A DNA stretch of 64,000 nucleotides from an uncultured Gammaproteobacteria bacterium (GCA_964524845.1 CAZGFX010000002.1:6440-70439); one strand, 5' to 3'. Positions 5,735 to 52,987 are shown, numbered from the stretch's first letter. The notes: generated by a model not told the origin, from the letters alone. Translations and numbers: made by a program.

Positions 5735-5801
5735 TAATTGATATCAAACACACAAAATCAGCTGAAATAGGCTGTTTTTTTGTATTCGTGTGTACAAAAC
5801 C

Positions 5802-5830
5802 TTGACAGGATTGTCTCCGTGTGTTATCAT
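5802..5830 (+). promoter_or_regulatory. Sigma70-type promoter, cassette copy 1: TTGACA 5802-5807, 17-bp spacer, TGtTATCAT extended -10 ending at 5830
   Basis: Exact consensus -35, TGn extended -10 and 17-bp spacer. AAGGAG RBS lies 8 nt before the ATG at 5877. Confidence 0.65.
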
Positions 5831-5876
5831 TCTATGATAAAAACTAAAATAAAACAAATGAGAAAAGGAGAGAATT

Positions 5877-6986
5877 ATGGAAAAGTTAATATTTGAATTT
5901 GAGGAACTGATAGAAAAAATCGGTTTAGGAAGAGTTGTTGCCGCATTCTACGAAAAAATTCCTAAAGAGTTTTTTGAAAACATGACTTTTGATGAGTGGA
6001 TGCAGGTTTACGAATTTACTACATCAGGAAGCGATTTACAAAAAATCGTTCTCCGAAAAATTTCGGAATTTAAAAAAACATTTGATGAGTGGGAAAAAGT
6101 TTACATCGATCAAGATTACTCAGATGATCACCATACCTTCCTCACTTCAGAAGAAGTTGATTTAAATAGTCTTGTTTTCAAAAAAAAGTTAGAAACCGCG
6201 GAGACGTTTGATGAGTGGGAAAAAGTTTACATCGATCCAGATGACCGTTATGACCATATCTGCCTCACTTCAGAAGAAATTGATTTAATAAGCAGTCTCG
6301 CTCTCAAAAAAATGTTTTTTATTGCAAAAACGTTTGATGAATGGATGCGGGTTTACAAATTTACTACATCAGGAAGCGATCTTGAAAAACTCGCTATTCA
6401 AAAAATGTCAGAATTTACAAAAACATTTGATGAGTGGAAGGTAGTTTACGAAAACTTTCCATCCGAAAGTGAACTTCAAAAACTCGCTATTCAAAAAATG
6501 TCAGAAGTTGCAAAGACATTTGATGAATGGATGTTGGTTTACAAAAAATCTCCATCCGAAAGCGAGTCTCAAAAACTCGCTATTCAGAAGATATCAGAAG
6601 TTGCAAACACATTTGATGAGTGGAAGGTGGGTTACGAAAACTCTCCATCCGAAAGTGAGCTTCGAAAACTTGCTGTTCAAAAAATGTCAGAAGTTGCAAA
6701 GACATTTGGTGAATTGTGGATTGTTTACTTCTACTCTCCATCCGAAAGTGAGCTTCAAAAACTCGCTATTCAAAAAATGTCAGAGACAGCAAAGCATTTT
6801 TATGAATGGGAGATGCTTTGCGGATGCTCTCCATCCGAAAGCGAGTCTCAAAAACTCGTTATTCAAAAAATGTTAGAGCTTGCAGAAACACTTGATGAAT
6901 GGAAGGCAGTTTACGAATATTCTCCATCCGAAAGCGAGCCTCAAAAACTCGCTCTTCAAAAAATGGGCGAATTCGTTCAGGTCTAA
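5877..6986 (+). CDS. Repeat protein, paralog A: about 35-aa leader plus 10 tandem 31-42-aa repeats of type TFDEWxxVY(xx)SPSESELQKLAIQKMSEVAK
   Basis: Strong promoter and RBS. In-frame 93-bp DNA repeats; three consecutive units at 6424-6702 are near-identical. No signal peptide. Confidence 0.7.
   Translation: MEKLIFEFEELIEKIGLGRVVAAFYEKIPKEFFENMTFDEWMQVYEFTTSGSDLQKIVLRKISEFKKTFDEWEKVYIDQDYSDDHHTFLTSEEVDLNSLVFKKKLETAETFDEWEKVYIDPDDRYDHICLTSEEIDLISSLALKKMFFIAKTFDEWMRVYKFTTSGSDLEKLAIQKMSEFTKTFDEWKVVYENFPSESELQKLAIQKMSEVAKTFDEWMLVYKKSPSESESQKLAIQKISEVANTFDEWKVGYENSPSESELRKLAVQKMSEVAKTFGELWIVYFYSPSESELQKLAIQKMSETAKHFYEWEMLCGCSPSESESQKLVIQKMLELAETLDEWKAVYEYSPSESEPQKLALQKMGEFVQV
5985..6983 (+). repeat. 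In-frame tandem repeat array, 93-bp unit (two units are 126 bp), about 10 copies
   Basis: The recurring DNA word tttgatgagtgg...tccatccgaaagtgagcttcaaaaactcgctattcaaaaaatgtcagaagttgcaaagaca is directly visible. It causes the spurious alternative-frame ORF 6469-6876. Confidence 0.85.
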
Positions 6987-7004
6987 TAAGTTTCAAAATT
7001 TAAC

Positions 7005-7047
7005 ACCCCTTGCTTGTATTAAACAGGCAAGGGGATTTTTTTATAAA
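7005..7047 (+). terminator. Rho-independent terminator: ccccttgcttg / caggcaagggg stem, 7-nt loop, T7 run
   Basis: 11-bp stem with one G-U pair followed by TTTTTTT, immediately after the stop of the 5877-6986 gene. Confidence 0.8.
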
Positions 7048-7092
7048 ACCAGCTGAAATAAGCTGTTTTTTGTATTTGTATACACAAAAACC

Positions 7093-7121
7093 TTGACAGG
7101 ACTGTCCTTATGTGCTATTAT
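7093..7121 (+). promoter_or_regulatory. Sigma70-type promoter, cassette copy 2: TTGACA 7093-7098, 17-bp spacer, TGcTATTAT
   Basis: Consensus -35, extended -10 and 17-bp spacer. AAGGAG RBS before the ATG at 7171. Confidence 0.65.
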
Positions 7122-7170
7122 TTAATGATAAAAACATAAACAAACAAAAACAAAAAATAAGGAGAAAATC

Positions 7171-7854
7171 ATGGAAAAGATGTCATTTGATGAATTAGTA
7201 GGAAAAATTGGTTTTGGGCCAGCTGTTGTCATTTGTTACAAAAAACTTACAAAAGAGTTTTTTGAAAGACAGACATTTAAAGAATGGAAAACAATTTACG
7301 AAAATGCTCTATCCGGAAGCGATTTGAAAAAACTCGTATTAGAAGAGAAGATGTTAGGTCTTGCAAAAACGTTTGACGAATGTGTGTATATTCTCAAAAA
7401 CATTTCATCCGGAGATGAGTTTAGAAGACTTGTTCTTCAAAAAATGTTAGAACTTGCAAAGACCCCTCATGAGTGTATATTTGTTTATAATAACACGCCA
7501 GAAATAAGTATGTTTAAGAGGCCTGTTATTGAAAAAATATCAGAGATTGCAGAAACGATTGACGCATGGGTATTTGTTTATAACAATTCCTCATTCATAA
7601 TCGAGTTTAAAAGTATGGGTGAGCTTAAAAAACTTGCTTTAGAGAAGATTATGCTTGCAAAGACGTTTGACGAGTGGAAGTATGTTTACAAAAATTCCCA
7701 ATTAGGAAGTGAATTAAAAAGTCTCGCAATTCAGAAAATGTTAGAGTTTGATAATACATTTCATGAATGGATGTCTGTTTACAATGACTATTCATACGGA
7801 AGCGATTTGAAAGAACTCGTTCTCCAGAAGATGTCTGAATTCATTGAAGTATAA
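7171..7854 (+). CDS. Repeat protein, paralog B: same leader, about 6 degenerate 31-aa repeats
   Basis: N-terminus MEKMSFDELVGKIGFGPAVVICYKKLTKEFFERQTFKEW aligns to the N-termini of paralogs A and C. Repeats of type TFDEWKYVYKNSQLGSELKSLAIQKMLEF. Confidence 0.7.
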   Translation: MEKMSFDELVGKIGFGPAVVICYKKLTKEFFERQTFKEWKTIYENALSGSDLKKLVLEEKMLGLAKTFDECVYILKNISSGDEFRRLVLQKMLELAKTPHECIFVYNNTPEISMFKRPVIEKISEIAETIDAWVFVYNNSSFIIEFKSMGELKKLALEKIMLAKTFDEWKYVYKNSQLGSELKSLAIQKMLEFDNTFHEWMSVYNDYSYGSDLKELVLQKMSEFIEV

Positions 7855-7860
7855 TATAAA

Positions 7861-7898
7861 CCCCTTGCTTGTATTAAACAGGCAAGGGGATTTTTTTA
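7861..7898 (+). terminator. Rho-independent terminator, same hairpin as at 7005
   Basis: ccccttgcttgtattaaacaggcaaggggattttttt. Confidence 0.8.
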
Positions 7899-7943
7899 TA
7901 AAATCAGCTTAAATAGGCTGTTTTTGTGTTCTCATAAGTTGTG

Positions 7944-7972
7944 TTGACAAAATCTTTTACACATGTTATCAT
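7944..7972 (+). promoter_or_regulatory. Sigma70-type promoter, cassette copy 3: TTGACA 7944-7949, 17-bp spacer, TGtTATCAT
   Basis: Consensus elements. This is the more diverged cassette copy. Confidence 0.6.
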
Positions 7973-8025
7973 TTTACGATAAAAACAAATAAGTAAATAA
8001 ACAGACAAAAAAGAAGAAGAAAATT

Positions 8026-8268
8026 ATGAGAAAGATATCATTTGGTGAATCAGTAGAAAAACTCGGGTTTGGGCTAGCTGTTGTCACTCATTATGAAGAA
8101 CTTTCAAAAGAGTTTTTTGAAAAATTAACATTTGATGAATGGGTGTGGGTTTACAACCAATCTTTATCAGGAAGCGATTTACAAAAACTTGCCTTAAAGA
8201 AGATTTCGGAAATTTCAAAGAAGATCGACGAATTGATACCTATTCATAAAAACGTTCTATCTGATTAA
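8026..8268 (+). CDS. Repeat protein, paralog C: leader plus a single repeat unit (80 aa)
   Basis: MRKISFGESVEKLGFGLAVVTHYEELSKEFFEKLTFDEWVWVYNQSLSGSDLQKLALKKISE matches the leader and first repeat of paralogs A and B. Confidence 0.6.
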   Translation: MRKISFGESVEKLGFGLAVVTHYEELSKEFFEKLTFDEWVWVYNQSLSGSDLQKLALKKISEISKKIDELIPIHKNVLSD

Positions 8269-8273
8269 TAAAC

Positions 8274-8312
8274 ACCCCTTGCTTGTATTAAACAGGCAAG
8301 GGGATTTTTTTA
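8274..8312 (+). terminator. Rho-independent terminator, third copy of the same hairpin
   Basis: ccccttgcttgtattaaacaggcaaggggattttttt. Confidence 0.8.
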
Positions 8313-8361
8313 TAAAACCAGCTGAAATAAGCTGTTTTTTTGTATTCATGTGTATAAAACC

Positions 8362-8390
8362 TTGACAGAATTGTCTCCGTGTGCTATCAT
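8362..8390 (+). promoter_or_regulatory. Sigma70-type promoter, cassette copy 4: TTGACA 8362-8367, 17-bp spacer, TGcTATCAT
   Basis: Consensus elements. AAGGAGAAGG RBS before the ATG at 8437. Confidence 0.65.
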
Positions 8391-8436
8391 TTAATGATAA
8401 AAATATAAACAAAAAACAAAAAATAAGGAGAAGGTC

Positions 8437-9018
8437 ATGGAAAACTCAAAATCTAACTATGAATTCATCAAACCGATGTCTGTTGTTGAACAGGTGCGAA
8501 TTTTGAAAAATCTGTTTCCAGATGAGCTCGGTGAAAAGGTTTTCGATGAAGATATTGCGACAAACCTGATTTCCATAGGAGCGGGAAGATGTTTCGCAAT
8601 TCCAAAATGGCAACTTTTCGGAAAAAATTATTATGAAGCGTGCGAGAAGGTTCTTCGTGCACTTTCAAATAGCAGAAATGGCAAATTTCGTAACAAAATC
8701 ATCATCGATACAGAAAATCTTCGTGAATCAAAAGAGAAAATTTCAGGGCTTAAAAAAAACGCCGATGCACAAAAAGGAAATGATATTCTCGTTATTTCGG
8801 GACAATTGACAGATAATGAGTTAAGACTAGGAATATTTGAGACTGCGATAATACTCATCGCACACTATAAAAATATTTATAAATATAACAATTTAAAGAT
8901 CGACTGTGCTGGAGATGAGTCTACTTGTTTTGGCGGCGCTTTCTTTAATATGCCCGAATTCAGCATTGTGGGGGACGAGCTATGGTTGTCTGATTATTCT
9001 AAGTTTTATGCATTTTAG
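8437..9018 (+). CDS. Hypothetical protein (193 aa), unrelated to the repeat paralogs but driven by the same promoter cassette
   Basis: ORF with strong promoter and RBS. No recognisable motif. Confidence 0.55.
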   Translation: MENSKSNYEFIKPMSVVEQVRILKNLFPDELGEKVFDEDIATNLISIGAGRCFAIPKWQLFGKNYYEACEKVLRALSNSRNGKFRNKIIIDTENLRESKEKISGLKKNADAQKGNDILVISGQLTDNELRLGIFETAIILIAHYKNIYKYNNLKIDCAGDESTCFGGAFFNMPEFSIVGDELWLSDYSKFYAF

Positions 9019-9044: not shown

Positions 9045-9080
9045 AAAAAGGTTATCCAAAACATGGATGACCTTTTTTTA
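9045..9080. terminator. Bidirectional hairpin terminator between the convergent genes 8437-9018 and 9094-9444
   Basis: aggttatcc/ggatgacct stem (one G-U pair) flanked by an A-run and a T-run. Confidence 0.5.
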
Positions 9081-10599: not shown

Positions 10600-11139
10600 A
10601 TGATGATATTTTTATACGCAAAAGACAATCCAACTCCTAAGCACGCTGATAGGAGAAGGTTTTTGCTTAGTGAATTTCAAAAGAAAGGTGTTCAATTTGT
10701 TACAAACATCGCAGGACATGGCGGTTCGACACTTCCGTACGGATCAGGTGGCGTGGCGCTAGATGAGGAAGATTTTTTCTATGGAGCTGACGGAGTGTGT
10801 GTCGAATATGACGATCCAGATTTCAATCTGCATATTATAGCGCGTGCGTGCGTTGAAAGATCCGTACCGCTTGTAGTTCTTGTTCATGATTCTGTTTCAA
10901 GTGAAGAACAAATTCCTGAATATGCGAAAATTCTAAGATATACGAAAGATAATTGTTCGGATAAAATTGAAGAGATTTTAAATATTTGCGCCGCGCCACC
11001 AACATCATTACAATCTGTGAAATTTACAGTAAGAATTACTCCACAAATCGAGAGGTTTTTGGATAGAGAGGCGAAAAAACAATCTGTATCAAAAGCCGAT
11101 TTTGTCAGGAAACTGATCGAAGATAAAATGGAAAAATAA
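10600..11139 (+). CDS. Hypothetical protein with a C-terminal ribbon-helix-helix (CopG/Arc-like) DNA-binding module
   Basis: C-terminal ~40 aa: KFTVRITPQIERFLDREAKKQSVSKADFVRKLIEDKM, a beta-strand then helix pattern typical of RHH. The gene lies between gap and pgk with 3-nt and 17-nt spacing, so it is co-transcribed. Confidence 0.55.
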   Translation: MMIFLYAKDNPTPKHADRRRFLLSEFQKKGVQFVTNIAGHGGSTLPYGSGGVALDEEDFFYGADGVCVEYDDPDFNLHIIARACVERSVPLVVLVHDSVSSEEQIPEYAKILRYTKDNCSDKIEEILNICAAPPTSLQSVKFTVRITPQIERFLDREAKKQSVSKADFVRKLIEDKMEK

Positions 11140-30161: not shown

Positions 30162-33100
30162 ATGTTACAGCGCTTATTTAAAAAACATTTTTTTACCGGC
30201 GTATGTTTTGTTATAGCCGGAATATTTTTTGGCCTTACTGCGCATGCGGTGGAAGTAGATTTTACCGTAGCACAGCAGGCAGGATTCGGTTCTTCTACTC
30301 TTGAAGATATTGTTATTAATACAATAAAAATAATTCTTGGTTTTCTAGGTCTTGCGGCAGTTCTTATCACTCTATATGGAGGATATATATGGATGTCGTC
30401 AGGAGGAAATTTAGAAAAAATTACAAAAGCAAAGAAGACATTAAGCGCTGGCGTTGTTGGTTTGGCGATTGTGCTCAGTGCGTTTTCAATCGCTCATTTT
30501 ATTTTTGGTATTTTTGATGACGTAATGGGAGGTGGAGGAGGAATTGTAAACGAAGATACTGGTGGTGGAGATGGTGGTTGTATTGGATCGGCTTGTTTAG
30601 CTGGTGGCTCAGGAGGATTTTCCGTTTCTTCTGTTAATCCAGGAAACGGTGCGACTGCAATAGCACTTTGTAGGAAGGTGCAAGCTGTTTTTAATTCAAA
30701 TGTTGATTCCGCTTCTGTTAATTCGAATAATTTTAAAATATCATATAACAATGAGGGTTCCCAGTCTGTTATAAATGGTAATTATGCAGTAAGCGCAAAC
30801 GGTTTAACTTTTAGGCATACCGAATTGTTTCCGGCAAATAAAATAATAAATGGATATATTGCGGACGGAACCGGTTCGATAAGAAGTACAGCAGGAATCG
30901 AGATAGCGAGCAACAGAGGAAGAAACTGGTCTTTCACAACAGGAACGGAGGTTGATTCTGTTTTACCAACGGTCGATGATGTTTTTCCGTCTAGCGGCAT
31001 GAAAGATGTATGCAGAAACACAACAATAGAAATAGTATTTAGTGAAATAATGGATATTTCAACTCTTAATTACGATACAATTAAATTATTTGATGATAAG
31101 GGTAATCAAATTAATCTTTCTGGTCTGAAAATAACATCTACATTCGATTCTGTTATTATTCGTCCAGCAAGCACTCTTGAGGAAAACAAGGTGTATCGAG
31201 TTGTCGCGAGTGGAAATATAAGCGACGCGTGCGATAATAAACTTGATGGAAACAAAAATAACACAGCAGAAGGATCTCCAACTGATGATTTTGTGTGGAC
31301 ATTTACAACAGGAACAGAGATGAACTGTAGTCCGATAATTACAAACATGTCGATACAATCTGGTGCTTATGATAGCCAAACATACGAAGTTGTAATTACA
31401 GGAAAATATCTTGGTATTGCCGGTGATACTCAATTTGGAAATCTAGAATCAGGAGACAATACTTTTTGTTCATTATTTGGAACATGCGAGGATGAGGAGG
31501 ATGGTTTTGTTGTAAAAAGCAGAACTAATAACAGATGGATAACGAGAGTTCCTGTTGGTTCTGTGACAAGTCCATTAAAAATAGTTAAAGAAGAGGGTGG
31601 CCAGAGCAATGCACAATCTTTTACTGTTTTAAGTCCTTATCTGTCAGGGGTCGAAGAAAAAAGTGGAAGAGCTGGTAATTTCTTCACTTTGTATGGTACA
31701 AATTTTGGATCTGAGCCAGGAAAGGTTTCGTTTGTTTATAATGATGAAGAAGGAAATCAAAAAAGAATAGAAGCGGCTCAACTATGTAAAGAAAATGCTT
31801 GGCACGAGGATTATATTGTAGCGAACGTACCAGATCTACCAGATGCGGAATATCAAATACAAATTGAAACTGCCACCGGATTACCAAGTAATATAATTGA
31901 TTTTACAATTGATAGTACAATTCCTTCAAATCCGGGACTTTGCGGAGCAGTGCCTGTTTGTACAAACTCAGAGATGTTTCCTGTACAAACAATAGGTGTT
32001 AATCTTGGTGCCGTACCAGGAAAACTTGAGTTTACACTTGGAACAATAGAAATTCCTCCTGCCGCACAAGTAGACTGGAAGGATAATGGAATAGATTTTC
32101 GAGTAAAAGATGTAAAAAATGGAATGCATAAAATCCGCGCAACACGAATTGAAGGGAGTGGTGATGATAAGAAAGAGTTGCGTTCAAACCCTGTGTTTAT
32201 AGAAAAGCCATGCCCACCACCAAGTCCATTAAAACCTGTAATAAAATCAATTTCGCCTGATAATGGATCTAGTAAAGAAGGTACCAACACAATAATTACA
32301 ATCCTTGGGGATACTTTGGTGTATTCTGGATTGGGCGGAAAACAATCTATGTATAATGGTACTGTTGCAAAAAACTTTGGGGACAAAGGAGGTGTTGTGT
32401 ATTTTTGTCCTACAAATTTAACATTGCCAATATTACCGGGCGATGACAGGTGTGTTTCTGTATCTAAGGGAGAGTGTTTCGAATGGATAGATAACGAGAT
32501 TACTGTTACTACACCAACTCTTGCAGAAGGTGTGTATTCGGTTTATGTAAGTAAAGAAAATATTTATACAAGTGATATAAATCCTGTTGCAAAATTTACA
32601 AGTAATTCCATAGTGCGTCCTGGACTGTGTACGATTTCACCAAAAAACGGACCGGATAATACAAAAGTTACACTTACAGGCAAAACCCTTGGCGATGAAA
32701 GGGCAGATGTTGATGGTAAGATAGAATATTATAAAAATAGCTCATTTGGATTTTCAGATAATATAGAATCATGGACAAACAAGAGTATAACTCATACATC
32801 TGTATCTAATTTACCAGAACAACAATCTCTTGTTCGTGCTTGGATTACAATTCCTGATCGCGGGCAAGGTGGGGTTTTGACTTCGGGAACATATCAATCT
32901 AATTCAAAATCTTTTTATTCAAACCCTATTATTAAAGAAATATCTCCATCGAACGGACCGGTTGGTACGTATGTGAGTATTTTTGGAAAAAACTTTGGCA
33001 ATGTTCCGGGCAGAGTAATATTTAAAAAAGGTTCTGATGTGGTTGATGCAGGTGGTATAAATTGTCCTATGACATGGAAAGATAACTATGTGATAGTTTC

Positions 33101-36100
33101 TGTGCCCAGTGGTTTAGAAACAGAAGAATATTCAATTCATGTTATTCCTTATCTTCCAGGAGGAGTTGAATCTAATGGTAAGGAGTTTACGGTAAACAAA
33201 GAACCTCTTGGACCTCAGTTGTGTCCTATTTTGGAGACAGCACAACCATTCAAATTGAATTCAAAATATTTATTTATAGGTGATAATTTTGGAACGACTC
33301 CAGCGCTAGATAATAGTAGGTTGTCATGGAGTGGAATTGGCGGAGTTATTACAACCACACCAACAACAACTCCTCAATGGTCAAACACACAAGGAGAGTT
33401 TGCTGTGCCAAATAAAGAGGGTGCTGGAAGAGTAAAAATGCTTAGGACAACTAAGTTTTATACAGGTAGAAAATGCACGATTCCAACTTTTGGAGGAGTT
33501 TGTTTTACTCATTACGAGGATACTTTTGAGGATAAAACAATTGAGAGTAATTTAGTGCCTTTTGAGATAGGCGAGGGACCTAGAATTATAGACAATGATT
33601 TAACGTGCGATCCTAAAAATCCAAAATCTCTTTCTCCTGCTCCAAAAAGCGGAGAGACTGTGTGTAAGCAACGCTCAATAAATCTTTCTTTTGATAAACC
33701 AATTGATCCGGAGACTTTAAACTCAGCAAATATAATTATTAATAAGAGAAAAGATAATGGCGTTGGTTATATAACACTTACTAACACTTCTGATAAGAAG
33801 GAGTATAGTATCATACCAACAGGAAATGGATTTAGTGTACTTTTGTTTAATGATAATGGTCAGCACGAGATATCAACAACTTCATATGAAATTATTGTAG
33901 GAAACTTTGATTCAGAAGGCATTAAATCTTCAAACGGTTTGAAGATGCAACCAATTACAATATCAGGATCCTCAATTATTGATGGGTTTAAATGGAATTT
34001 TAATGGAAATGGTGAAAACTGTGTATTTCCTGCAAACGCTCAGTATTCCATAGCAAACACCGATCCATTAAGGCTTACTCGGGCTCATAATACAGAAACA
34101 CTATCAACCCAGATACTGGATCCAAATACATGTAATGCATTTGTTTTTGGCGGTGATACGTGGACACTTACTCCAAATACACAAACTCCGGCTACATTTG
34201 CGACACTCGGTGGTACAACAACAAAGAATATTACAGGTACGAGCGATGGAGTTGGTATACTTTCCGCTTCAACAAATATTGAAGGAAGAGTATTTACCGA
34301 CTCTAATAAAATAGAGGTGCTTTATGAAGACGCTCGGCCAAAAGTCGTCGTGCGTAATTCATGTAATGAGAAAGATCCTCAAGATTATTCTCCATCTCCA
34401 AAAAACGGAGCTAACAATGTGTGTACAACGTCAGGAATATATATTGAATATAATAAATTTCTTGATCCAAACTCAATAACCACTGGTGCTATAAATATAA
34501 TGATTGGAGGTAAAGAAGTTGAGTTGCCAGAGTCGCCCAAGACACCAAAAAATGAAGTCCCAGATGGACTAATACAAGAAACAGAAGGTAAACCAATAAT
34601 AACACTTATTTCGGGCGATATTGGTAATGAAAATGGTATTATAGGATTTAAGATTAATATTGGTACTCTTGTTGTTGGTTCTGAATATGAAATATCAGTA
34701 AATGGAGTTGTTGGTGAAAATGGTTTTCCAGCAGAAGAATATTCATGGTCTTTTGAGACAGGAAGTAGTGAATGTACAATAGATCAAGAAAATACAGTTG
34801 TTCGAATGACAGCTAAAGACCCAATCCGTCTTACAACATATGATCCTTATTTATTGAGCGCAAACTTATATAATAAAAATGATTTGTGTCAGCCAATTAA
34901 CGTACAAAAAACAGATACATGGTCAACAGGAAATATTTCTATTGCTAAAATAGAAAATACAACAAATCTAGTTGCCGTTGCTGAAACAGGTAATACAACA
35001 GTAACTGTACAAACGACTGCTCAAGGATTATCTTTTACCGACACAAACGATGTAAAAGTTAATATTATAAAATCATGTAAAGATCCTGAAGCCGTTAATT
35101 ATAATCCAAACGCAACGGTTGTAAACAATGCGACTTGTAAATATATCACAGTCACGGAAATTACTCCAACAAGCGGTCGTGCAGTAGGTGATTCAAATGA
35201 CACCGTGGTTACAATTACCGGGTCAAACTTCATGGATGCTATTAATGGTCCTGCTGGATCAGGAGCTGTATATTTTTGTCCTACTACAGGATATGAAAAC
35301 ATAGAAAAAGATTGTGAAAAAAGCACAATAACTTCTTGTGGAACATGGTATTCTGATTCGGTCACAATAGACGTTCCTAAACTGACACTCAATAAACAAT
35401 ATGAGGTACGTGTTGTTGATGCAAATGGAAAAATTGATCGTCGTTCTACAAATTCAACTGTATTTTTTACAGCAACAAATGATTTACAACCAGGTCTTTG
35501 TTCTCTAGATCCAATAAGTGGAACCATAGGACAAAAAACTATTATTAATGGAAGAAATCTAGGAAATGTTAAAAATAGCAGCAGTGTTTTATTTAAGACG
35601 ACACCAGCAACTATTCTGTCTTCTTCTGATTGGTCAAACGAAAAAGTTTCAGCATCCGTTCCACAAGTAGATGAGACAGTAAATGTTTCGGCTAAAATTC
35701 AATTTGGTACAACGACATTTAAAAATTCAAACCCATTGCTATTCTTCGCGCCACCTGTAATCACAGGAATATCTCCTGAAAAAGGAAACAATAATGCATT
35801 TATTACAATAAGCGGAAAAAATTTTGGCAACATACCTGGAATCGTATATTTTAAATCAGGAAACACTGATATTACAGCTGAGTTTCCTACACAATGTAAT
35901 ACCAACTGGACAAATAAAACAATTGTTGTGAAAGTGCCGTCAGGACTTTCTACAAATGCGAAAGTGCGTGTTATACCAGGGTATCAGACAAGATTAGTAT
36001 CGAATGAGAAGGATTTTGTTTATGATTCTAAATTATTGGTTGGTCCGCAATTGTGTCAATTAACAAGTCAATATATTTCTCCGGAAACAGACATTACTTT

Positions 36101-38789
36101 CAATGGAGAAAATTTTACAGATAATCCTGGTGGAAAAATGATTTGGAGCGGTATAAACAAAGAAACTTCTTACGATGGAGAAGGGTGGACACCGACTCAG
36201 GTGGTATTCACATCTCCTGATTCGCAAGGCGAGGGGTTTGTGCGTTTAGAAAAAAAAGTTATTATCAATACAGGAAAATTTACGTGCCAAGGGTTTGAGT
36301 TTGGAAACGTATGTCTAGGAATAAGATCGGATAAACAAGATATTACACTTGTAAGTAATGAAATTCCATTTGTTTTGGCAAACGCTCCGGAAGTTGTTGA
36401 ACGTACTCAGTGTGATGGGATAAATCCGATTTCTCCTGCTCCTACAAAAGATTCAAATAATGTTTGTAGAAATACAGCACTGTATCTTGAATTTAATCAA
36501 AAGATAGAATCATCATCGTTAAATTATGATAATATAGTTATAACAAGAAGCGGAGGACCTTTATCAAAGGTAAATGAGTCTGGTGATGTTTTGTTGGCAG
36601 GAAAGAGTTTGGCAAGATCTCAGACAGTAAATGAACCACCTGATAACGACGAACCAACAGACCTAACAAGTTTTGATTACACTATTGTTCCTATGCAAAA
36701 AGGTTTCTTCATTAGATTTAATAATCTTTTGTCACCAAGTAGATTATATACTGTAAGAGTTAGTAATATTATTAATTCTTTTGGTGTTCCTATGTCAACT
36801 CCATATGAGTGGAGTTTTACGACACAGGCACAATCATGCACCCCAACAAAAGGGACACTAAGTATAATAGCAAGATATCCTAGAGTTGATGGTGTATTAA
36901 GCGCTGTTGATAACGATAGGCCAATTACTCTTTCAGAAAATTATTTATCAAGAGAATTATATGGAAACTTCATTGATGGGCAGTGTATACCAGTAAGTCT
37001 TGGAGATGACGATGTTGTATGGACATCCGGAGATCAAAAAGTAGCAAAAATTAACTCTGTTTCTAAGATTTATTCAATATATGGAATTAGTTATGGAACG
37101 ACATTTGTTAATGCATCATATGCATCTTTCACGGCAAAGGAAAATGTTAATGTAAATATTTCCGGAGATCTTATAACATTCCATTATCCTTATTTTAATC
37201 AGGAAGATGTGTGTAGAAACACAAACATTGCTATTACATTTAAAGAAAATGTCGCCTTGCCACTTGATGAAACTTCTATAATACTAGAATCTTGTGGATC
37301 AGAAAGTATATTCAATCAAGAAGGCAAAGATAATACATGTGTTAATCCAGAAGTTGTTGTTGGTGACTTAATATCACAGGGTAACAGAGTGTTTTTTACA
37401 CCTTCTGATAATTTGAAACAAAACACAATTTATCATGCTCGTTCAAATTCAATAACACTAGAAACAGGTATTACATCAAAAGAAGCTGATTGGTGGTTTA
37501 AAACCGTGAATACAAACGGTCTGTGTACTCTTGAAACACTTAGACTTACACCTCTTGATTATGAATTCACTGGATTACAATCAGTAAATTTCCTTGCAGA
37601 GGCGCTTGATGGAGCTGGAAATTCGATTCAATCCGATTTCTCTTGGAAGATTGACGACCTTTCTTTAATTGAAAGTGTATATATCATGAACGGATCTAAT
37701 ATAATAAAACCCGTTGGAAATAAGAATGGTGTTACCACAGTATCTGTGACAGCAGATAGTGGTATTGCCGGAAACAAAACAGCTTCTACAAATATAACTG
37801 TTAATACATGTCAAAAACCATGGTCAGGAATTGATGGGAAGGGTGAGCTTTATGACAGCGAAAACCAATTTTCTCTATCATATTGTCTCGATGGAGGAAA
37901 TCCTAATATTAGAATTTCTAAATCTCCTCAAATTATAAATACACCCGATCCTTCAGGATTAAAATCAGATATGTTGGCACAGTATTTCATGACTGTGGAT
38001 CCAAACACCACCCCTGTATTAACAGATCAGTGCGGAGACGGAGTTATCAAATATTCGGAACAATGTGATTGCGGAACAAAAAACATATGTATACCAGCAT
38101 CTCTTGGAAATAATTCTTGTGTAGGAAAAACATCAAAAAATAATATTGAAGTTGTATATTGTACAAATCAGTGTAAGTTAAATATAAATTCTTGTTTCTC
38201 TTGGGATACGTCAGAAAAAACATCTAATATAAAAAACACAAATGGTATATTAACACTCGACAACCCTTCTATAAACGGAAGCATTGAATATATAATCAAT
38301 TCAAATATATCAAATCATCCGTGGACAGGAATATTCTGGAATGGAAATATACCTAAGTTCGGAGAAACATCTTCTCAAAAATCTTCTATCACAATGTCAT
38401 ATAAAGCAAACAACTCTTGTAAGATTGATACAATGTCAGGAGGAGCCGAGTCTGTATTACTTGATCAGAATATAAAAACAGTTGGTTTTTCGGATAACAC
38501 GAAGGGATCTTGTCTATATATCAAATTATCACTAGCTCCCGTGACATCTAATCAGTGGGTTCCAAATACAAATTATACGAAAAACACAAAATTGAAAGCA
38601 AATAATCAAATATATAATGTTGCGATATCAGGGTATAAATCAGGATCAAGCATAGACAATGATGTTACAACTGGAAAATTAGAAAACTTAACATCTGAAG
38701 TATCGCCATCGGTAAATTCAATTATTATAAGCGGTGGAGAAAGTATTAATATAGCAAATGATTTTGATAAACAAAATTTAGCCGAATAA
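30162..38789 (+). CDS. Giant (2875 aa) surface protein. Signal peptide plus a VirB2/TrbC-pilin-like two-helix N-terminal anchor, a Gly-rich linker, at least five Big_5-like and many IPT/TIG-like Ig-fold domains, and a C-terminal Cys-rich CGDG...CDCG module.
   Basis: A single uninterrupted ORF. Recurring domain-boundary motifs (PGLC/PQLC followed by ISPxxGxxGTxVTIxGxNFG). Five SPxPxxGxxxVCxNTxIxxxF...LN units. The C-terminal DQCGDGVIKYSEQCDCG resembles the Myxococcus-type cysteine-rich repeat. Confidence 0.85.
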   Translation: MLQRLFKKHFFTGVCFVIAGIFFGLTAHAVEVDFTVAQQAGFGSSTLEDIVINTIKIILGFLGLAAVLITLYGGYIWMSSGGNLEKITKAKKTLSAGVVGLAIVLSAFSIAHFIFGIFDDVMGGGGGIVNEDTGGGDGGCIGSACLAGGSGGFSVSSVNPGNGATAIALCRKVQAVFNSNVDSASVNSNNFKISYNNEGSQSVINGNYAVSANGLTFRHTELFPANKIINGYIADGTGSIRSTAGIEIASNRGRNWSFTTGTEVDSVLPTVDDVFPSSGMKDVCRNTTIEIVFSEIMDISTLNYDTIKLFDDKGNQINLSGLKITSTFDSVIIRPASTLEENKVYRVVASGNISDACDNKLDGNKNNTAEGSPTDDFVWTFTTGTEMNCSPIITNMSIQSGAYDSQTYEVVITGKYLGIAGDTQFGNLESGDNTFCSLFGTCEDEEDGFVVKSRTNNRWITRVPVGSVTSPLKIVKEEGGQSNAQSFTVLSPYLSGVEEKSGRAGNFFTLYGTNFGSEPGKVSFVYNDEEGNQKRIEAAQLCKENAWHEDYIVANVPDLPDAEYQIQIETATGLPSNIIDFTIDSTIPSNPGLCGAVPVCTNSEMFPVQTIGVNLGAVPGKLEFTLGTIEIPPAAQVDWKDNGIDFRVKDVKNGMHKIRATRIEGSGDDKKELRSNPVFIEKPCPPPSPLKPVIKSISPDNGSSKEGTNTIITILGDTLVYSGLGGKQSMYNGTVAKNFGDKGGVVYFCPTNLTLPILPGDDRCVSVSKGECFEWIDNEITVTTPTLAEGVYSVYVSKENIYTSDINPVAKFTSNSIVRPGLCTISPKNGPDNTKVTLTGKTLGDERADVDGKIEYYKNSSFGFSDNIESWTNKSITHTSVSNLPEQQSLVRAWITIPDRGQGGVLTSGTYQSNSKSFYSNPIIKEISPSNGPVGTYVSIFGKNFGNVPGRVIFKKGSDVVDAGGINCPMTWKDNYVIVSVPSGLETEEYSIHVIPYLPGGVESNGKEFTVNKEPLGPQLCPILETAQPFKLNSKYLFIGDNFGTTPALDNSRLSWSGIGGVITTTPTTTPQWSNTQGEFAVPNKEGAGRVKMLRTTKFYTGRKCTIPTFGGVCFTHYEDTFEDKTIESNLVPFEIGEGPRIIDNDLTCDPKNPKSLSPAPKSGETVCKQRSINLSFDKPIDPETLNSANIIINKRKDNGVGYITLTNTSDKKEYSIIPTGNGFSVLLFNDNGQHEISTTSYEIIVGNFDSEGIKSSNGLKMQPITISGSSIIDGFKWNFNGNGENCVFPANAQYSIANTDPLRLTRAHNTETLSTQILDPNTCNAFVFGGDTWTLTPNTQTPATFATLGGTTTKNITGTSDGVGILSASTNIEGRVFTDSNKIEVLYEDARPKVVVRNSCNEKDPQDYSPSPKNGANNVCTTSGIYIEYNKFLDPNSITTGAINIMIGGKEVELPESPKTPKNEVPDGLIQETEGKPIITLISGDIGNENGIIGFKINIGTLVVGSEYEISVNGVVGENGFPAEEYSWSFETGSSECTIDQENTVVRMTAKDPIRLTTYDPYLLSANLYNKNDLCQPINVQKTDTWSTGNISIAKIENTTNLVAVAETGNTTVTVQTTAQGLSFTDTNDVKVNIIKSCKDPEAVNYNPNATVVNNATCKYITVTEITPTSGRAVGDSNDTVVTITGSNFMDAINGPAGSGAVYFCPTTGYENIEKDCEKSTITSCGTWYSDSVTIDVPKLTLNKQYEVRVVDANGKIDRRSTNSTVFFTATNDLQPGLCSLDPISGTIGQKTIINGRNLGNVKNSSSVLFKTTPATILSSSDWSNEKVSASVPQVDETVNVSAKIQFGTTTFKNSNPLLFFAPPVITGISPEKGNNNAFITISGKNFGNIPGIVYFKSGNTDITAEFPTQCNTNWTNKTIVVKVPSGLSTNAKVRVIPGYQTRLVSNEKDFVYDSKLLVGPQLCQLTSQYISPETDITFNGENFTDNPGGKMIWSGINKETSYDGEGWTPTQVVFTSPDSQGEGFVRLEKKVIINTGKFTCQGFEFGNVCLGIRSDKQDITLVSNEIPFVLANAPEVVERTQCDGINPISPAPTKDSNNVCRNTALYLEFNQKIESSSLNYDNIVITRSGGPLSKVNESGDVLLAGKSLARSQTVNEPPDNDEPTDLTSFDYTIVPMQKGFFIRFNNLLSPSRLYTVRVSNIINSFGVPMSTPYEWSFTTQAQSCTPTKGTLSIIARYPRVDGVLSAVDNDRPITLSENYLSRELYGNFIDGQCIPVSLGDDDVVWTSGDQKVAKINSVSKIYSIYGISYGTTFVNASYASFTAKENVNVNISGDLITFHYPYFNQEDVCRNTNIAITFKENVALPLDETSIILESCGSESIFNQEGKDNTCVNPEVVVGDLISQGNRVFFTPSDNLKQNTIYHARSNSITLETGITSKEADWWFKTVNTNGLCTLETLRLTPLDYEFTGLQSVNFLAEALDGAGNSIQSDFSWKIDDLSLIESVYIMNGSNIIKPVGNKNGVTTVSVTADSGIAGNKTASTNITVNTCQKPWSGIDGKGELYDSENQFSLSYCLDGGNPNIRISKSPQIINTPDPSGLKSDMLAQYFMTVDPNTTPVLTDQCGDGVIKYSEQCDCGTKNICIPASLGNNSCVGKTSKNNIEVVYCTNQCKLNINSCFSWDTSEKTSNIKNTNGILTLDNPSINGSIEYIINSNISNHPWTGIFWNGNIPKFGETSSQKSSITMSYKANNSCKIDTMSGGAESVLLDQNIKTVGFSDNTKGSCLYIKLSLAPVTSNQWVPNTNYTKNTKLKANNQIYNVAISGYKSGSSIDNDVTTGKLENLTSEVSPSVNSIIISGGESINIANDFDKQNLAE

Positions 38790-52591: not shown

Positions 52592-52607
52592 TTTTTAGTA
52601 TCAAAAA

Positions 52608-52987
52608 GTCTTATTGAGATCATAAGCCGAATTCTGTTTCTGCCAAAGGCAGACAACGATCATCTCTCTAGTCCTTTCGTTACCAAAAGGATCAAGCAGC
52701 CAACCCATCCCGTCAAGCGGGATCTACTTGGCCTTGCACCCGATAGAAGTTTGCCTGTTTTTGCATGTCACCATGTAAACCGCGAGAATCTTACCTCTCG
52801 CATTTCACCCATCACCTATCGATTACTCTCAAGGCTGGTTTATTTTCTGTTGCACTTGTCCTATCCTACCAAAGTGGGACGGTGGGCGTTACCCATTATC
52901 ATGAATCAGAACTTCTTCTGAAACGGTGTTCGGACTTTCCTCTCTCCCGCCGATGGCGGGACAGCGATCGTTTTACCCAATAAGACC
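52608..52987 (-). ncRNA. rnpB: RNase P RNA, bacterial type A-like
   Basis: Minus-strand reading contains GAGAGGAAAGTCCGAACACC, GGTAACGCC, AGTGCAACAGAAA, GGGTGAAA...GGTAAGA, GCAAGGCCAA, GGTTGGCTGCTTGA and ACAGAATTCGGCTTAT in the canonical order. The ends pair as P1 (GTCTTATTG/CAATAAGAC). Confidence 0.85.

What the first reader, a model, noticed from the sequence alone, without database searches (positions are those of the whole stretch)
5877..8268. Paralog family built from 93-bp in-frame tandem repeats with copy number 10, 6 and 1
The three proteins share a ~35-aa leader (MEKxxFxExxxKIGxGxxVxxxYxxLxKEFFExxTFDEW).

They then carry 10, 6 or 1 copies of a 31-aa unit (TFDEWxxVYxxSPSESELQKLAIQKMSEVAK). 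Two units in paralog A are 42 aa.

Within paralog A, consecutive units at 6424-6516, 6517-6609 and 6610-6702 are near-identical at the DNA level. This implies recent expansion or ongoing homogenisation. It also gives a built-in substrate for RecA-mediated or slipped-strand repeat-number variation. That kind of contingency-locus behaviour has not been described for this motif, as far as I can tell.

The proteins have no signal peptide. The unit looks like a helix-loop-helix solenoid repeat. The conserved acidic SPSESE/SGSDL loop could be a phosphorylation or binding site.
Basis: partly seen in the sequence, partly recalled or inferred. Interest (0 to 1): 0.65.

Follow-up and report, generated by a model that had tools for sequence, protein, structure and literature searches.

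The report
Undescribed helical-repeat protein paralogs, variable length
Three neighbouring genes encode members of an unnamed family of cytoplasmic helical-repeat (solenoid) proteins, seen so far mainly in ultra-small Patescibacteria, that grow and shrink by whole 31-residue units; it is a new protein family of a familiar structural kind, not a fast-switching contingency locus.

Summary
ORFs A (5877-6986), B (7171-7854) and C (8026-8268) share a 34-36-aa leader followed by 10, 6 and 1 in-frame units of about 31 aa; two units in A are 42 aa.

"Near-identical" is overstated. The three cited units are 83-92% identical in DNA, the array averages 78%, and the lowest synonymous divergence between any two units is 0.19.

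AlphaFold2 (pLDDT 91.9) gives an all-alpha solenoid, helix(10)-loop(5)-helix(13) per unit, with the leader as N-terminal cap. Pfam, NCBIfam, PADLOC and PDB give no significant match. Fold resemblance to TPR, HAT, Sel1 and HEAT proteins is only generic.

The family is real: 530 clusters at 50% identity in metagenomes. Two named GTDB genomes are Patescibacteria. Gene neighbourhood is not conserved.

Each window gene sits in its own duplicated cassette of near-consensus promoter and identical terminator.

At a related Komeilibacteria locus, assemblies with identical flanks carry 4, 3 or 2 units, joined at 45-55-nt exact runs. Unit-number variation therefore probably occurs in this family, although short-read collapse is not excluded.

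Function is inferred, not shown: a modular protein-binding scaffold. A phosphorylation role has no support; the conserved Ser sits at the helix N-cap position in the model.

The parts
5759..5774 (+). Small palindrome CAGCTGAAATAGGCTG followed by a T-run, upstream of promoter A. It is the first element of the duplicated regulatory cassette.
5802..5830 (+). Promoter of gene A: TTGACA, 17 nt, TG-extended TATCAT (11 of 12 consensus positions).
5877..6986 (+). Paralog A, 369 aa: leader (5877-5984) plus 10 units.
5985..6077 (+). Unit A1 (31 aa, SGSDL-type loop), 84% DNA identity to A4.
6078..6329 (+). Units A2 and A3 (42 aa each, 126-bp period). The extra 11 aa lengthen the loop and helix B. pLDDT is lower here (66-68).
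6330..6422 (+). Unit A4 (31 aa, SGSDL-type loop).
6423..6983 (+). Units A5-A10, the SPSESE-type block specific to paralog A. Pairwise DNA identity is 71-92%. This is the youngest part of the array.
7006..7034 (+). Terminator hairpin after A (12-bp stem, then a T-run). The sequence is identical in all three copies.
7050..7065 (+). Cassette palindrome CAGCTGAAATAAGCTG.
7093..7121 (+). Promoter of gene B: TTGACA, 17 nt, TATTAT, with TG.
7171..7854 (+). Paralog B, 227 aa: leader plus 6 diverged units of 31-36 aa.
7861..7889 (+). Terminator hairpin after B.
7944..7972 (+). Promoter of gene C: TTGACA, 17 nt, TATCAT, with TG. This cassette copy is the most diverged (about 75%), and its Shine-Dalgarno is weakened (AAGAAG).
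8026..8268 (+). Paralog C, 80 aa: leader, one full unit, and a degenerate truncated second helix A (KIDELIPIHKN).
8275..8303 (+). Terminator hairpin after C.
8362..8390 (+). Fourth copy of the same promoter cassette, driving the unrelated ORF D.
8437..9018 (+). ORF D, 193 aa. It is not a repeat protein. It shares the promoter cassette and has its own, different terminator at 9045-9077. It is an orphan: its only database match is itself.

Best explanation
A, B and C are tandem paralogs of an undescribed family of soluble cytoplasmic alpha-solenoid proteins, found so far mainly in Patescibacteria.

**Architecture.** A conserved N-terminal cap of about 35 aa (M.F.EL.EK.GFG.AVV....L...F...L) is followed by a variable number of 31-residue helix-loop-helix units. 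The unit consensus is F-[DE]-[EQ]-W-x-x-[VI]-Y-x-x-A-P-x-G-S-E-L-K-K-L-A-L-x-K-M-x-E. The conserved aromatic and aliphatic positions are read as the inter-helix core. The conserved Ser caps helix B. The variable positions (5, 6, 9, 10, 13, 19, 23, 26) are read as surface.

**Function (inferred, not shown).** The proteins most likely act as modular protein- or peptide-binding scaffolds. Their length and surface differ between paralogs.

**Evolution (shown by sequence comparison).**
- Whole promoter-ORF-terminator cassettes were duplicated in tandem.
- Units of 93 bp were gained or lost in frame, by unequal homologous recombination or slippage at short exact runs.

In this window the array is moderately old and mostly under purifying selection, so it is a slowly evolving length-variable gene, not a high-frequency switch. 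Near-consensus promoters, good ribosome-binding sites (A, B) and strong terminators predict separate, probably high, expression of each gene.
For: - **Anatomy:**
- **Structure:** AF2 with a 150-sequence alignment gives pLDDT 91.9, pTM 0.80 and 23 helices. Each unit is a 10-residue helix, a 5-residue loop and a 13-residue helix. The leader forms three short helices with pLDDT about 95.
- **Family size:** 530 clusters with E<=1e-3, 196 with E<=1e-10 and 15 with E<=1e-30 among 1.84 billion representatives.
- **Leader conservation:** the leader is conserved across 25 distant members.
- **Unit consensus:** derived from 502 units, with hydrophobic periodicity.
- **Taxonomy:** true hits in GTDB genomes are Patescibacteria UBA4067 (two paralogs 1.4 kb apart) and a Ca. 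Komeilibacteria bacterium.
- **Stand-alone gene:** there is no conserved gene neighbourhood in 9 loci.
- **Selection:** dN/dS is 0.46-0.64 between paralogs and mostly 0.3-0.8 between units; the four pairs above that range (0.85-1.5) all involve A9. dS is at least 0.185.
- **Cassette duplication:** intergenic cassettes are 75-89% identical, the 29-nt terminator stem-loop is 100% identical three times, and there are four promoters matching 11 of 12 consensus positions.
- **Unit gain and loss:** the Komeilibacteria locus has alleles U1-U2-U3-U4, U1-U2-U4, U1-U3-U4, U1-U4 and a U1/U2 chimera followed by U4. The leader and 150-nt flanks are 100% identical, and the junctions fall at 55- and 45-nt exact runs. 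The alleles come from at least 10 samples and at least two assemblers.
- **Cytoplasmic location:** no hydrophobic segment and an acidic N-terminus.
Against: - Function is not demonstrated. There is no partner, no conserved operon and no domain fusion.
- The fold match to known binding solenoids is weak: Foldseek PDB has no hit at E<=1e-3 and TM is at most 0.36.
- Family pI ranges from 4.4 to 9.4, so no common electrostatic mode is apparent.
- The Komeilibacteria copy-number alleles all come from low-coverage short-read assemblies (1.3-5x where stated). The main junction, a 55-nt exact run, equals the SPAdes default maximum k-mer as I recall it, so some alleles could be collapse artefacts.
- The window's own genome has no close relative in any collection searched, so nothing is known about variation at this locus itself.
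- The source taxon of the window was not verified.
Confidence: 0.6

Rival explanations
1. Paralog A is a contingency-type locus: RecA-mediated or slipped-strand changes in unit number occur at high frequency within a population and generate functional heterogeneity.
For: - In-frame units share exact runs of up to 33 bp, and A5/A7 are 92% identical.
- A has the third most similar units of 136 family proteins.
- A related locus shows 2-, 3- and 4-unit alleles on identical flanks, although its units are only 73-88% identical.
- Three identical terminator copies hint at some gene conversion within the cluster.
Against: - Units are 61-92% identical and average 78%.
- dS is at least 0.185, so there has been no recent homogenisation.
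- Changes would be in-frame, so there is no on/off switch.
- The homolog P0001 is identical in 16 contigs.
- Most family members have old, diverged units: the median of the highest inter-unit identity per protein is 33%.
- No population data exist for this locus.
Confidence: 0.15
2. The family is a set of effectors delivered to the host cell or to the cell surface by a non-classical route. The conserved N-terminal 35 aa would be the targeting signal, and the variable repeat number and surface would be driven by interaction with the host.
For: - The N-terminal leader is conserved family-wide in front of a highly variable body.
- There are several paralogs per genome.
- Copy number appears polymorphic between strains.
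- From general knowledge, Patescibacteria are mostly episymbionts, and repeat-number-variable effectors are known in Ehrlichia, Legionella and Xanthomonas (papers listed).
Against: - The leader is predicted with pLDDT about 95 as three helices packed onto the solenoid, that is, a structural cap.
- It has no signal-peptide features.
- No secretion genes are consistently adjacent.
- There is no experimental evidence.
Confidence: 0.1
3. The protein is a modular nucleic-acid reader in the manner of PPR, PUF or TALE proteins: each 31-aa unit would read one base through the hypervariable positions of helix A.
For: - The repeat is a two-helix unit of similar size.
- Variability is concentrated at a few positions (5, 6, 9, 10) on one helix face.
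- A PUF structure appears among the weak Foldseek hits (rank 31, E 3.3e-2).
Against: - Paralog A is strongly acidic (net charge -28, pI 4.7), and family pI is not consistently basic.
- Pfam PPR, PUF and TALE models do not match.
- The fold match is no better than to any other solenoid.
Confidence: 0.05
4. The ORFs, at least C, are decaying remnants without function, and the repeats are only a by-product of DNA-level amplification.
For: - C is truncated inside its second unit.
- C has a weakened Shine-Dalgarno (AAGAAG) and the most diverged promoter cassette.
Against: - A and B have intact frames of 369 and 227 aa. dN/dS is below 1 between paralogs and for most unit pairs; the only values above 1 (1.26-1.50) are three pairs involving unit A9.
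- Structural core positions are conserved across hundreds of distant homologs.
- The fold is predicted with confidence.
- Family members of about 95 aa with two units are common.
Confidence: 0.05

Closest known systems
TPR-like alpha-alpha superhelices (TPR, Sel1-like repeats, HAT repeats)
   Same: - The units are two antiparallel helices stacked into a solenoid.
- The best, though weak, structural neighbours are HAT and TPR proteins: Prp6, SART3, Syf1/Clf1 and LapB.
- Giant-virus Sel1 proteins are the best viral matches.
- Such proteins typically act as protein-binding scaffolds.
   Different: - The period is 31 aa, against 34 for TPR and HAT and 36-44 for Sel1.
- No Pfam TPR, Sel1 or HAT model matches A, B, C or any of 150 homologs.
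- hhalign against a consensus TPR gives 0.04% probability.
- TM-scores are at most 0.36.
- The signature (F1, W4, V7, Y8, A11 ... A21, L22, K24, M25) is different, and there is a family-specific N-terminal cap.
31-residue HEAT-like repeats (PBS-lyase / EZ-HEAT type, and the artificial alphaRep proteins built on them)
   Same: - The 31-residue period and the short-helix, turn, longer-helix layout are the same.
- There is a weak phmmer hit of the family consensus to alphaRep A3_A3 (E 0.009).
   Different: - Pfam HEAT models do not match.
- hhalign against an alphaRep sequence gives 0.4% probability (the template sequence was recalled from memory).
- The D-x-x-V-R-x-x-A-A-x-x-L-G signature is absent.
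Armadillo repeats (designed ArmRP OR497/OR329, PDB 4rv1 and 4hxt)
   Same: - This is the best sequence-profile match in the PDB (E 5e-9, summed over about 8 repeats).
- The loop plus helix B (S-D-S-E-L-K-K-L-A-L-x-K-M) aligns with ARM helix H3 (T-D-S-E-V-Q-K-E-A-A-R-A-L).
   Different: - ARM units have 42 aa and three helices.
- Every aligned repeat needs a gap of about 11 residues where ARM helix H2 would be.
- hhalign gives 1.7% probability.
- Pfam Arm does not match.
In-frame intragenic tandem-repeat (VNTR) genes of bacteria, for example the Legionella pneumophila intragenic repeats (PMC2639597) or the Ehrlichia tandem-repeat proteins (PMC3417381)
   Same: - Whole in-frame units differ in number between strains.
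- The change is presumably by recombination or slippage.
- There are several paralogs.
   Different: - Here the repeats encode a folded solenoid in a cytoplasmic protein, not a disordered or surface-exposed segment.
- The units in the window are 61-92% identical, not near-identical.
- Variation has been seen only in a relative, and only in assemblies.
Simple-sequence contingency loci (Haemophilus, Neisseria phase variation)
   Same: Repeats within a gene serve as a substrate for changes in copy number.
   Different: - Those use identical 1-8-nt units, and changes in number shift the frame or the promoter spacing, switching expression on and off at high rate.
- Here the 93-nt units are diverged and in-frame, so no switch would result.

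Membership tests
TPR (Pfam clan TPR; 34-aa W4-L7-G8-Y11-A20-F24-A27-P32) | Significant match to a TPR-family profile. | tested here: not met
   No TPR model appears even at E<=1 for A, B or C. None appears among 150 homologs at E<=1e-3. hhalign against consensus TPR gives 0.04% probability (template from memory).
TPR (Pfam clan TPR) | A 34-residue helix-turn-helix unit forming a right-handed superhelix. | tested here: inconclusive
   The unit is helix-loop-helix, but 31 residues long. Foldseek hits to TPR and HAT proteins have E of 5e-3 to 3e-2 and TM of at most 0.36.
HEAT-like PBS-lyase repeat (31 aa) | A period of about 31 residues with two helices. | tested here: met
   The modal spacing of units in 153 family proteins is 31. 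DSSP on the model shows 10- and 13-residue helices.
HEAT-like PBS-lyase repeat (31 aa) | Match to HEAT_PBS, HEAT_2 or HEAT_EZ profiles, or the DxxVRxxAAxxLG signature. | tested here: not met
   No Pfam HEAT hit. hhalign gives 0.4% probability. The family consensus lacks the signature.
Armadillo repeat | A unit of about 42 residues with three helices, and a match to the Arm profile. | tested here: not met
   The unit has two helices. The alignment to designed ARM needs an 11-residue gap per repeat. There is no Pfam Arm hit.
Sel1-like repeat | A 36-44-aa unit matching PF08238. | tested here: not met
   No Pfam Sel1 hit. Only a weak fold hit to giant-virus Sel1 proteins (E 9.6e-4, TM 0.29).
Contingency locus (repeat-mediated phase variation) | A tract of identical or near-identical repeat units. 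| tested here: not met
   Unit identity is 61-92%, TRF gives 78% matches, the longest exact run is 33 bp, and dS is at least 0.185.
Contingency locus (repeat-mediated phase variation) | A change in copy number switches expression, through the reading frame or the promoter. | tested here: not met
   All unit lengths are multiples of 3 (93, 96, 108, 126 nt), and the repeats lie inside the ORF.
Contingency locus (repeat-mediated phase variation) | Heterogeneity of copy number within populations. | not testable with these tools
   No reads are available, and no close relative of this genome exists in any collection searched.
In-frame intragenic VNTR protein | Alleles that differ by whole units on otherwise identical sequence. 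| tested here: inconclusive
   For the window locus this is not testable. For the related Komeilibacteria locus, six allele structures (4, 3, 3, 2, 2 and 2 units) were found with identical leader and flanks. All are short-read assemblies.
New family (leader plus 31-aa FDEW..VY...S.L..LA..KM.E units) | A conserved N-terminal GFGxAVV leader followed by at least one unit. | tested here: met
   A, B and C all have it. So do 41 of 153 family proteins under a strict 3-sequence HMM, and 25 aligned distant members.

The most novel reading that the evidence does not exclude
The family is a Patescibacteria-specific set of host-directed or cell-cell interaction effectors. The conserved 35-aa N-terminus would be a recognition tag for an unconventional export or handover route. 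The number and surface of the 31-aa units would be kept polymorphic between strains by unit-level recombination, as an arms-race module of an episymbiont.

The evidence does not exclude this. It includes a conserved leader, several paralogs per genome, strong stand-alone promoters, no conserved neighbours, and 2-, 3- and 4-unit alleles on identical flanks in a relative.
Probability: 0.1. Interest if true: 0.75.

Novelty: new member of a known kind. Interest (0 to 1): 0.35.

Why it matters
Patescibacteria genomes are small and full of unannotated genes. This analysis defines one such family, with its unit, its N-terminal cap, a confident fold model and at least 530 sequence clusters, and no current library names it. 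It could be added to Pfam or InterPro.

The family also offers a natural series of solenoids of 1 to more than 10 units, and apparently of strain-level length alleles. That makes it a tractable case for studying how repeat proteins grow and shrink.

It does not overturn anything. The fold class and the mode of evolution are familiar, and the function remains inferred.

Tried and rejected
**Library searches with no significant match**
- Pfam, NCBIfam, PHROGs and PADLOC scans of A, B, C and D gave only sub-threshold noise.
- An idealised 8x consensus protein scanned against Pfam gave inflated hits to unrelated families (DUF3764, Sigma70_ner, Imm27, AAA_34). These are the same short local match counted 7-8 times, and I rejected them as artefacts.

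**Searches for relatives**
- Protein A against genome contigs, metagenome contigs and viral contigs gave nothing, or one false positive (L006, a nucleotidyltransferase-like ORF).
- My degenerate leader pattern found 21 genome loci, of which only L013, L028 and probably L014 are real. It found none in viral contigs.
- Exact look-ups of A, C and D found no record, so strain comparison at this locus was impossible.

**Structure**
- The ORF D structure from a single sequence had pLDDT 41 and is unusable.

**Hypotheses considered and rejected**
- DNA mimic or nucleic-acid binder: family pI ranges from 4.4 to 9.4.
- Type IV pilin-like leader (G|F motif): there is no hydrophobic helix after it.
- Link to aminoacyl-tRNA synthetases: an aaRS gene is adjacent in 3 of 9 loci, which is too weak to build on.

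**Literature**
- Searches for the motif and for CPR helical-repeat families found nothing relevant.
Full report
**1. What is in the sequence**

Three ORFs lie head to tail on the + strand:

| Paralog | Coordinates | Length |
|---|---|---|
| A | 5877-6986 | 369 aa |
| B | 7171-7854 | 227 aa |
| C | 8026-8268 | 80 aa |

I split them at the TFDEW-like anchors.
- A has a 36-aa leader and ten units of 31, 42, 42, 31, 31, 31, 31, 31, 31 and 32 aa.
- B has a 34-aa leader and six units of 31-36 aa.
- C has a 34-aa leader, one full unit and a 15-aa tail. The tail looks like the degenerate start of a second unit (KIDELIPIHKN against TFDEWVWVYNQ).

Tandem Repeats Finder reports a 93-bp period (6.9 copies, 78% matches, score 626) and a 126-bp period for the two long units. 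All unit lengths are multiples of three. A tblastn of B and C against the whole window finds no further copy. The descriptive part of the finding is therefore correct.

**2. How similar the units are**

The claim of near-identity does not hold.
- The three cited units are 84% (A5/A6), 83% (A6/A7) and 92% (A5/A7) identical in DNA.
- Identity within the SPSESE block A5-A10 is 71-92%. Across all units of A it is 61-92%.
- The longest exact direct repeat is 33 bp.
- Nei-Gojobori estimates give dS = 0.185 for the closest pair and 0.25-1.2 for the rest.
- dN/dS is 0.3-0.8 for most unit pairs. Four pairs, all involving unit A9, reach 0.85-1.5. Between the leader-plus-first-unit regions of A, B and C it is 0.46-0.64.

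The array is therefore not freshly amplified or currently homogenised, and it is mostly under moderate purifying selection.

It is nevertheless young relative to its family. Among 136 family proteins with at least two detectable units, the median of the highest inter-unit identity per protein is 33%. Only four proteins reach 80%, and A (87%) is the third highest.

**3. Regulatory cassettes**

Each gene has its own copy of one intergenic module. The module has five parts:
- a 12-bp-stem terminator, whose 29-nt stem-loop is identical at 7006, 7861 and 8275 (0 matches expected by chance);
- a small palindrome, CAGCTGAAATAAGCTG, followed by a T-run;
- a promoter, TTGACA-17-TG-TATCAT, matching 11 of 12 consensus positions;
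- an A-rich leader;
- an AAGGAG ribosome-binding site.

The modules are 75-89% identical. That is more conserved than the adjoining coding DNA, which is 70-75% identical. It points to constraint or some gene conversion on the regulatory part.

A fourth copy of the promoter module drives ORF D (8437-9018). D is unrelated to the repeat proteins, matches only itself in 5.8 billion proteins, and could not be modelled (pLDDT 41).

C has the most diverged module and a weakened Shine-Dalgarno, so it may be decaying.

The cluster sits in ordinary chromosomal context:
- Upstream are PBP2, a Mur ligase and two ORFs with no Pfam match, which look like membrane proteins from their sequence.
- Downstream are a holin-4-like membrane protein, GAPDH, PGK and enolase.
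- There is no compositional anomaly.

**4. Structure**

AlphaFold2 with a 150-sequence alignment gives pLDDT 91.9 and pTM 0.80.
- The protein is all-alpha.
- The leader forms three short helices.
- Each 31-aa unit is a 10-residue helix (FDEWxxVYxx), a 5-residue loop (SPSES) and a 13-residue helix (ELQKLAIQKMSEV), followed by a 3-residue linker.
- The 42-aa units have a longer loop and a longer second helix, with lower confidence.

A family-wide profile of 502 units shows the following.
- Conserved positions: F1, W4, V/I7, Y8, A11, S15, L17, A21, L22, K24, M25 and E27.
- Spacing: the i, i+3, i+4, i+7 pattern is what a helix-helix core would show.
- Variable positions: 5, 6, 9, 10, 13, 19, 23 and 26.

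The conserved Ser lies immediately before the first residue of helix B. That is the N-cap position, and it gives a structural reason for the acidic SxSE loop. Nothing supports phosphorylation, although it cannot be excluded.

No segment is hydrophobic enough for a signal peptide or a membrane helix.

**5. Is it a known family?**

- **Family libraries:** Pfam, NCBIfam, PHROGs and PADLOC give no significant hit for A, B or C. No Pfam family recurs among 150 homologs.
- **PDB by single sequence:** phmmer of A finds nothing.
- **PDB by family profile:** the profile hits only designed repeat proteins, namely armadillo OR497 (E 5e-9), OR329 and dTor toroids. In the OR497 alignment the loop plus helix B pairs with ARM helix H3, and an 11-residue gap replaces ARM helix H2 in every repeat.
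- **PDB by consensus:** the family consensus weakly hits an alphaRep, an artificial 31-residue HEAT-like protein (E 0.009).
- **Profile-profile:** hhalign of a 20-sequence three-unit alignment gives 0.4% against alphaRep, 0.04% against consensus TPR and 1.7% against designed ARM.
- **Fold search, PDB:** Foldseek has no hit at E<=1e-3. The best hits are HAT and TPR proteins (Prp6, SART3, Syf1/Clf1, LapB) with TM of at most 0.36.
- **Fold search, viral:** the BFVD library gives giant-virus Sel1 and TPR proteins (best E 9.6e-4, TM 0.29).

Conclusion: this is a generic alpha-alpha solenoid with a HEAT-like 31-residue period. It is not demonstrably a member of TPR, HEAT, ARM, Sel1 or HAT.

**6. Distribution**

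An exhaustive phmmer search finds 530 clusters (at 50% identity) with E<=1e-3, 196 with E<=1e-10 and 15 with E<=1e-30. Their lengths run from about 95 to 940 aa. The N-terminal leader, M.F.EL.EK.GFG.AVV....L...F...L.F.QW, is conserved in distant members.

A degenerate DNA pattern for the leader, scanned over one genome for each of 185,579 species, gave three real hits:
- **L013:** Patescibacteria bacterium UBA4067. It carries two paralogs of 272 and 356 aa, 1.4 kb apart, and the larger one is followed within 0.6 kb by a SocA/Panacea antitoxin gene.
- **L028:** a Ca. Komeilibacteria bacterium, with a 157-aa protein of 4 units.
- **L014:** a 6.6-kb contig of a MAG labelled Gammaproteobacteria. 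Its neighbours (TrpRS, primase, a lysine-rich protein) and 39% GC look CPR-like, so it may be mis-binned.

Gene neighbourhoods in nine loci share nothing consistent. An aminoacyl-tRNA synthetase gene is adjacent in three of them, which I regard as unproven. None of the 150 homologs scanned carries a convincing extra Pfam domain, and the few hits are weak and spurious. The family looks like a stand-alone protein.

**7. Does unit number vary?**

The window's genome has no close relative in any collection, so the locus itself cannot be tested.

The homolog P0001 (565 aa, diverged units) is identical in 16 contigs.

The Komeilibacteria gene is informative. All the contigs below share the same neighbouring genes. 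Leader and 150-nt flanks were compared at the DNA level for L029-L035 and are 100% identical to L028. For L036-L038 and P0158 only the protein sequences and gene order were compared.

| Allele | Where found |
|---|---|
| U1-U2-U3-U4 | L028 (MEGAHIT MAG) |
| U1-U2-U4 | P0155: six samples, SPAdes and MEGAHIT |
| U1-U3-U4 | P0152: a 20-kb MEGAHIT contig |
| U1-U4 | P0156: three contigs, MEGAHIT and another pipeline |
| U1/U2 chimera, then U4 | P0097 (L029); the chimera is perfect, with the crossover after nt 47 |
| Variant U1, then U4 | P0158 |

The units there are only 73-88% identical. Where it could be measured, the deletions coincide with exact runs of 55 nt (one-unit offset), 45 nt (two-unit offset) and about 25 nt (the P0097 chimera). 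That is what unequal recombination or slippage would produce.

It is also where a de Bruijn assembler could take a short cut, and the stated coverages are low (1.3-5x). On the other side, the alleles recur across samples and assemblers, some assemblies are labelled k141 (from general knowledge, MEGAHIT's largest default k-mer, longer than a 93-nt unit), and L029 carries independent SNPs in a neighbouring gene. I put the chance that at least some alleles are real at about 60%.

It does not make the window's array a contingency locus.

**8. Most likely mechanism**

- **Shown by sequence comparison:** tandem duplication of promoter-ORF-terminator cassettes, and lineage-specific amplification of one unit type in A (the SPSESE block).
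- **Predicted (AlphaFold2 model):** a folded alpha-solenoid with an N-terminal cap.
- **Inferred from sequence:** cytoplasmic location.
- **Inferred from the fold class and the conservation pattern:** a scaffold that binds a protein or peptide through its variable surface. Paralogs would differ in length and surface, and each would be expressed separately from a strong promoter.
- **Unknown:** the ligand, the role of the leader beyond capping, and the reason D shares the promoter.

Rival readings and my probabilities:
- a high-frequency contingency locus, 0.15;
- an exported effector family with the leader as tag, 0.10;
- a PPR/TALE-like nucleic-acid reader, 0.05;
- non-functional remnants, 0.05, plausible only for C.

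**9. Verdict**

This is a real and well-defined but structurally conventional feature: a new, unnamed helical-repeat family, mainly of Patescibacteria, with variable unit number. It is worth a family definition and a read-level check of copy-number polymorphism. It would not surprise a specialist. Interest 0.35; novelty: new member of a known kind.

Noticed in passing
window 5735-5876, 6987-7170, 7855-8025, 8269-8436: Four copies of one intergenic module (terminator, small palindrome, near-consensus extended -10 promoter, RBS). They are 75-89% identical, which is more conserved than the coding DNA they flank. The 29-nt terminator stem-loop is 100% identical three times, suggesting constraint or gene conversion of the regulatory DNA.
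   Followed up: partly
window 8437-9018: ORF D (193 aa) uses the same promoter module as the repeat genes but is unrelated to them. Its only match in 5.8 billion proteins is itself (an NCBI record on a 309,728-bp contig). It has no Pfam hit, and the single-sequence AF2 model was unusable (pLDDT 41).
   Followed up: partly
window 5759-5774, 7050-7065, 7905-7920, 8319-8334: The palindrome CAGCT-N6-AGCTG is centred about 70 nt upstream of the predicted transcription start of each cassette and is followed by a T-run. It could be a secondary bidirectional terminator or an operator for a shared regulator.
   Followed up: no
window 8026-8268 and 8005-8025: Paralog C ends inside a degenerate second unit. 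Its Shine-Dalgarno is AAGAAG where the other cassettes have AAGGAG, so it may be decaying.
   Followed up: no
L028 6597-7070 (-); L029-L038: At a Ca. Komeilibacteria locus, metagenome assemblies from at least 10 samples carry 4-, 3- or 2-unit versions of the same gene with identical flanks. L029 also differs by 12 clustered SNPs in the adjacent 78-aa gene and by an intergenic indel.
   Followed up: yes
L007 81-689 (P0013): One ORF contains four or five units followed by a second GLGLASVVF-type leader and one more unit. It looks like two tandem paralogs fused or read through.
   Followed up: no
L013 341-1159 and 2587-3657 (-): Patescibacteria UBA4067 has two paralogs 1.4 kb apart. A NYN-domain gene lies between them, and a SocA/Panacea antitoxin gene with a small partner ORF follows the larger one. 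The 356-aa paralog contains thrice-repeated KKMSETAETFDQWLAI stretches.
   Followed up: partly
L001 11818-13224; L030 991-2280; L014 2491-3477: An aminoacyl-tRNA synthetase gene (AspRS/AsnRS-type, or TrpRS) lies next to the repeat gene in 3 of 9 loci examined. This may be chance.
   Followed up: partly
L014 (contig CAYZWC010000051.1): This contig of a MAG labelled Gammaproteobacteria carries a family member beside TrpRS, primase and a lysine-rich histone-like ORF, at 39% GC. It may be a mis-binned Patescibacteria contig.
   Followed up: no
window 30162-38789: A giant ORF of 2875 aa on the + strand. I did not examine it.
   Followed up: no
window 52607-52983 (-): Bacterial RNase P RNA class A (204 bits). 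It was the only Rfam hit in the window.
   Followed up: no
window 10600-11139: A 179-aa ORF with a HicB-family C-terminal segment sits between GAPDH and PGK.
   Followed up: no
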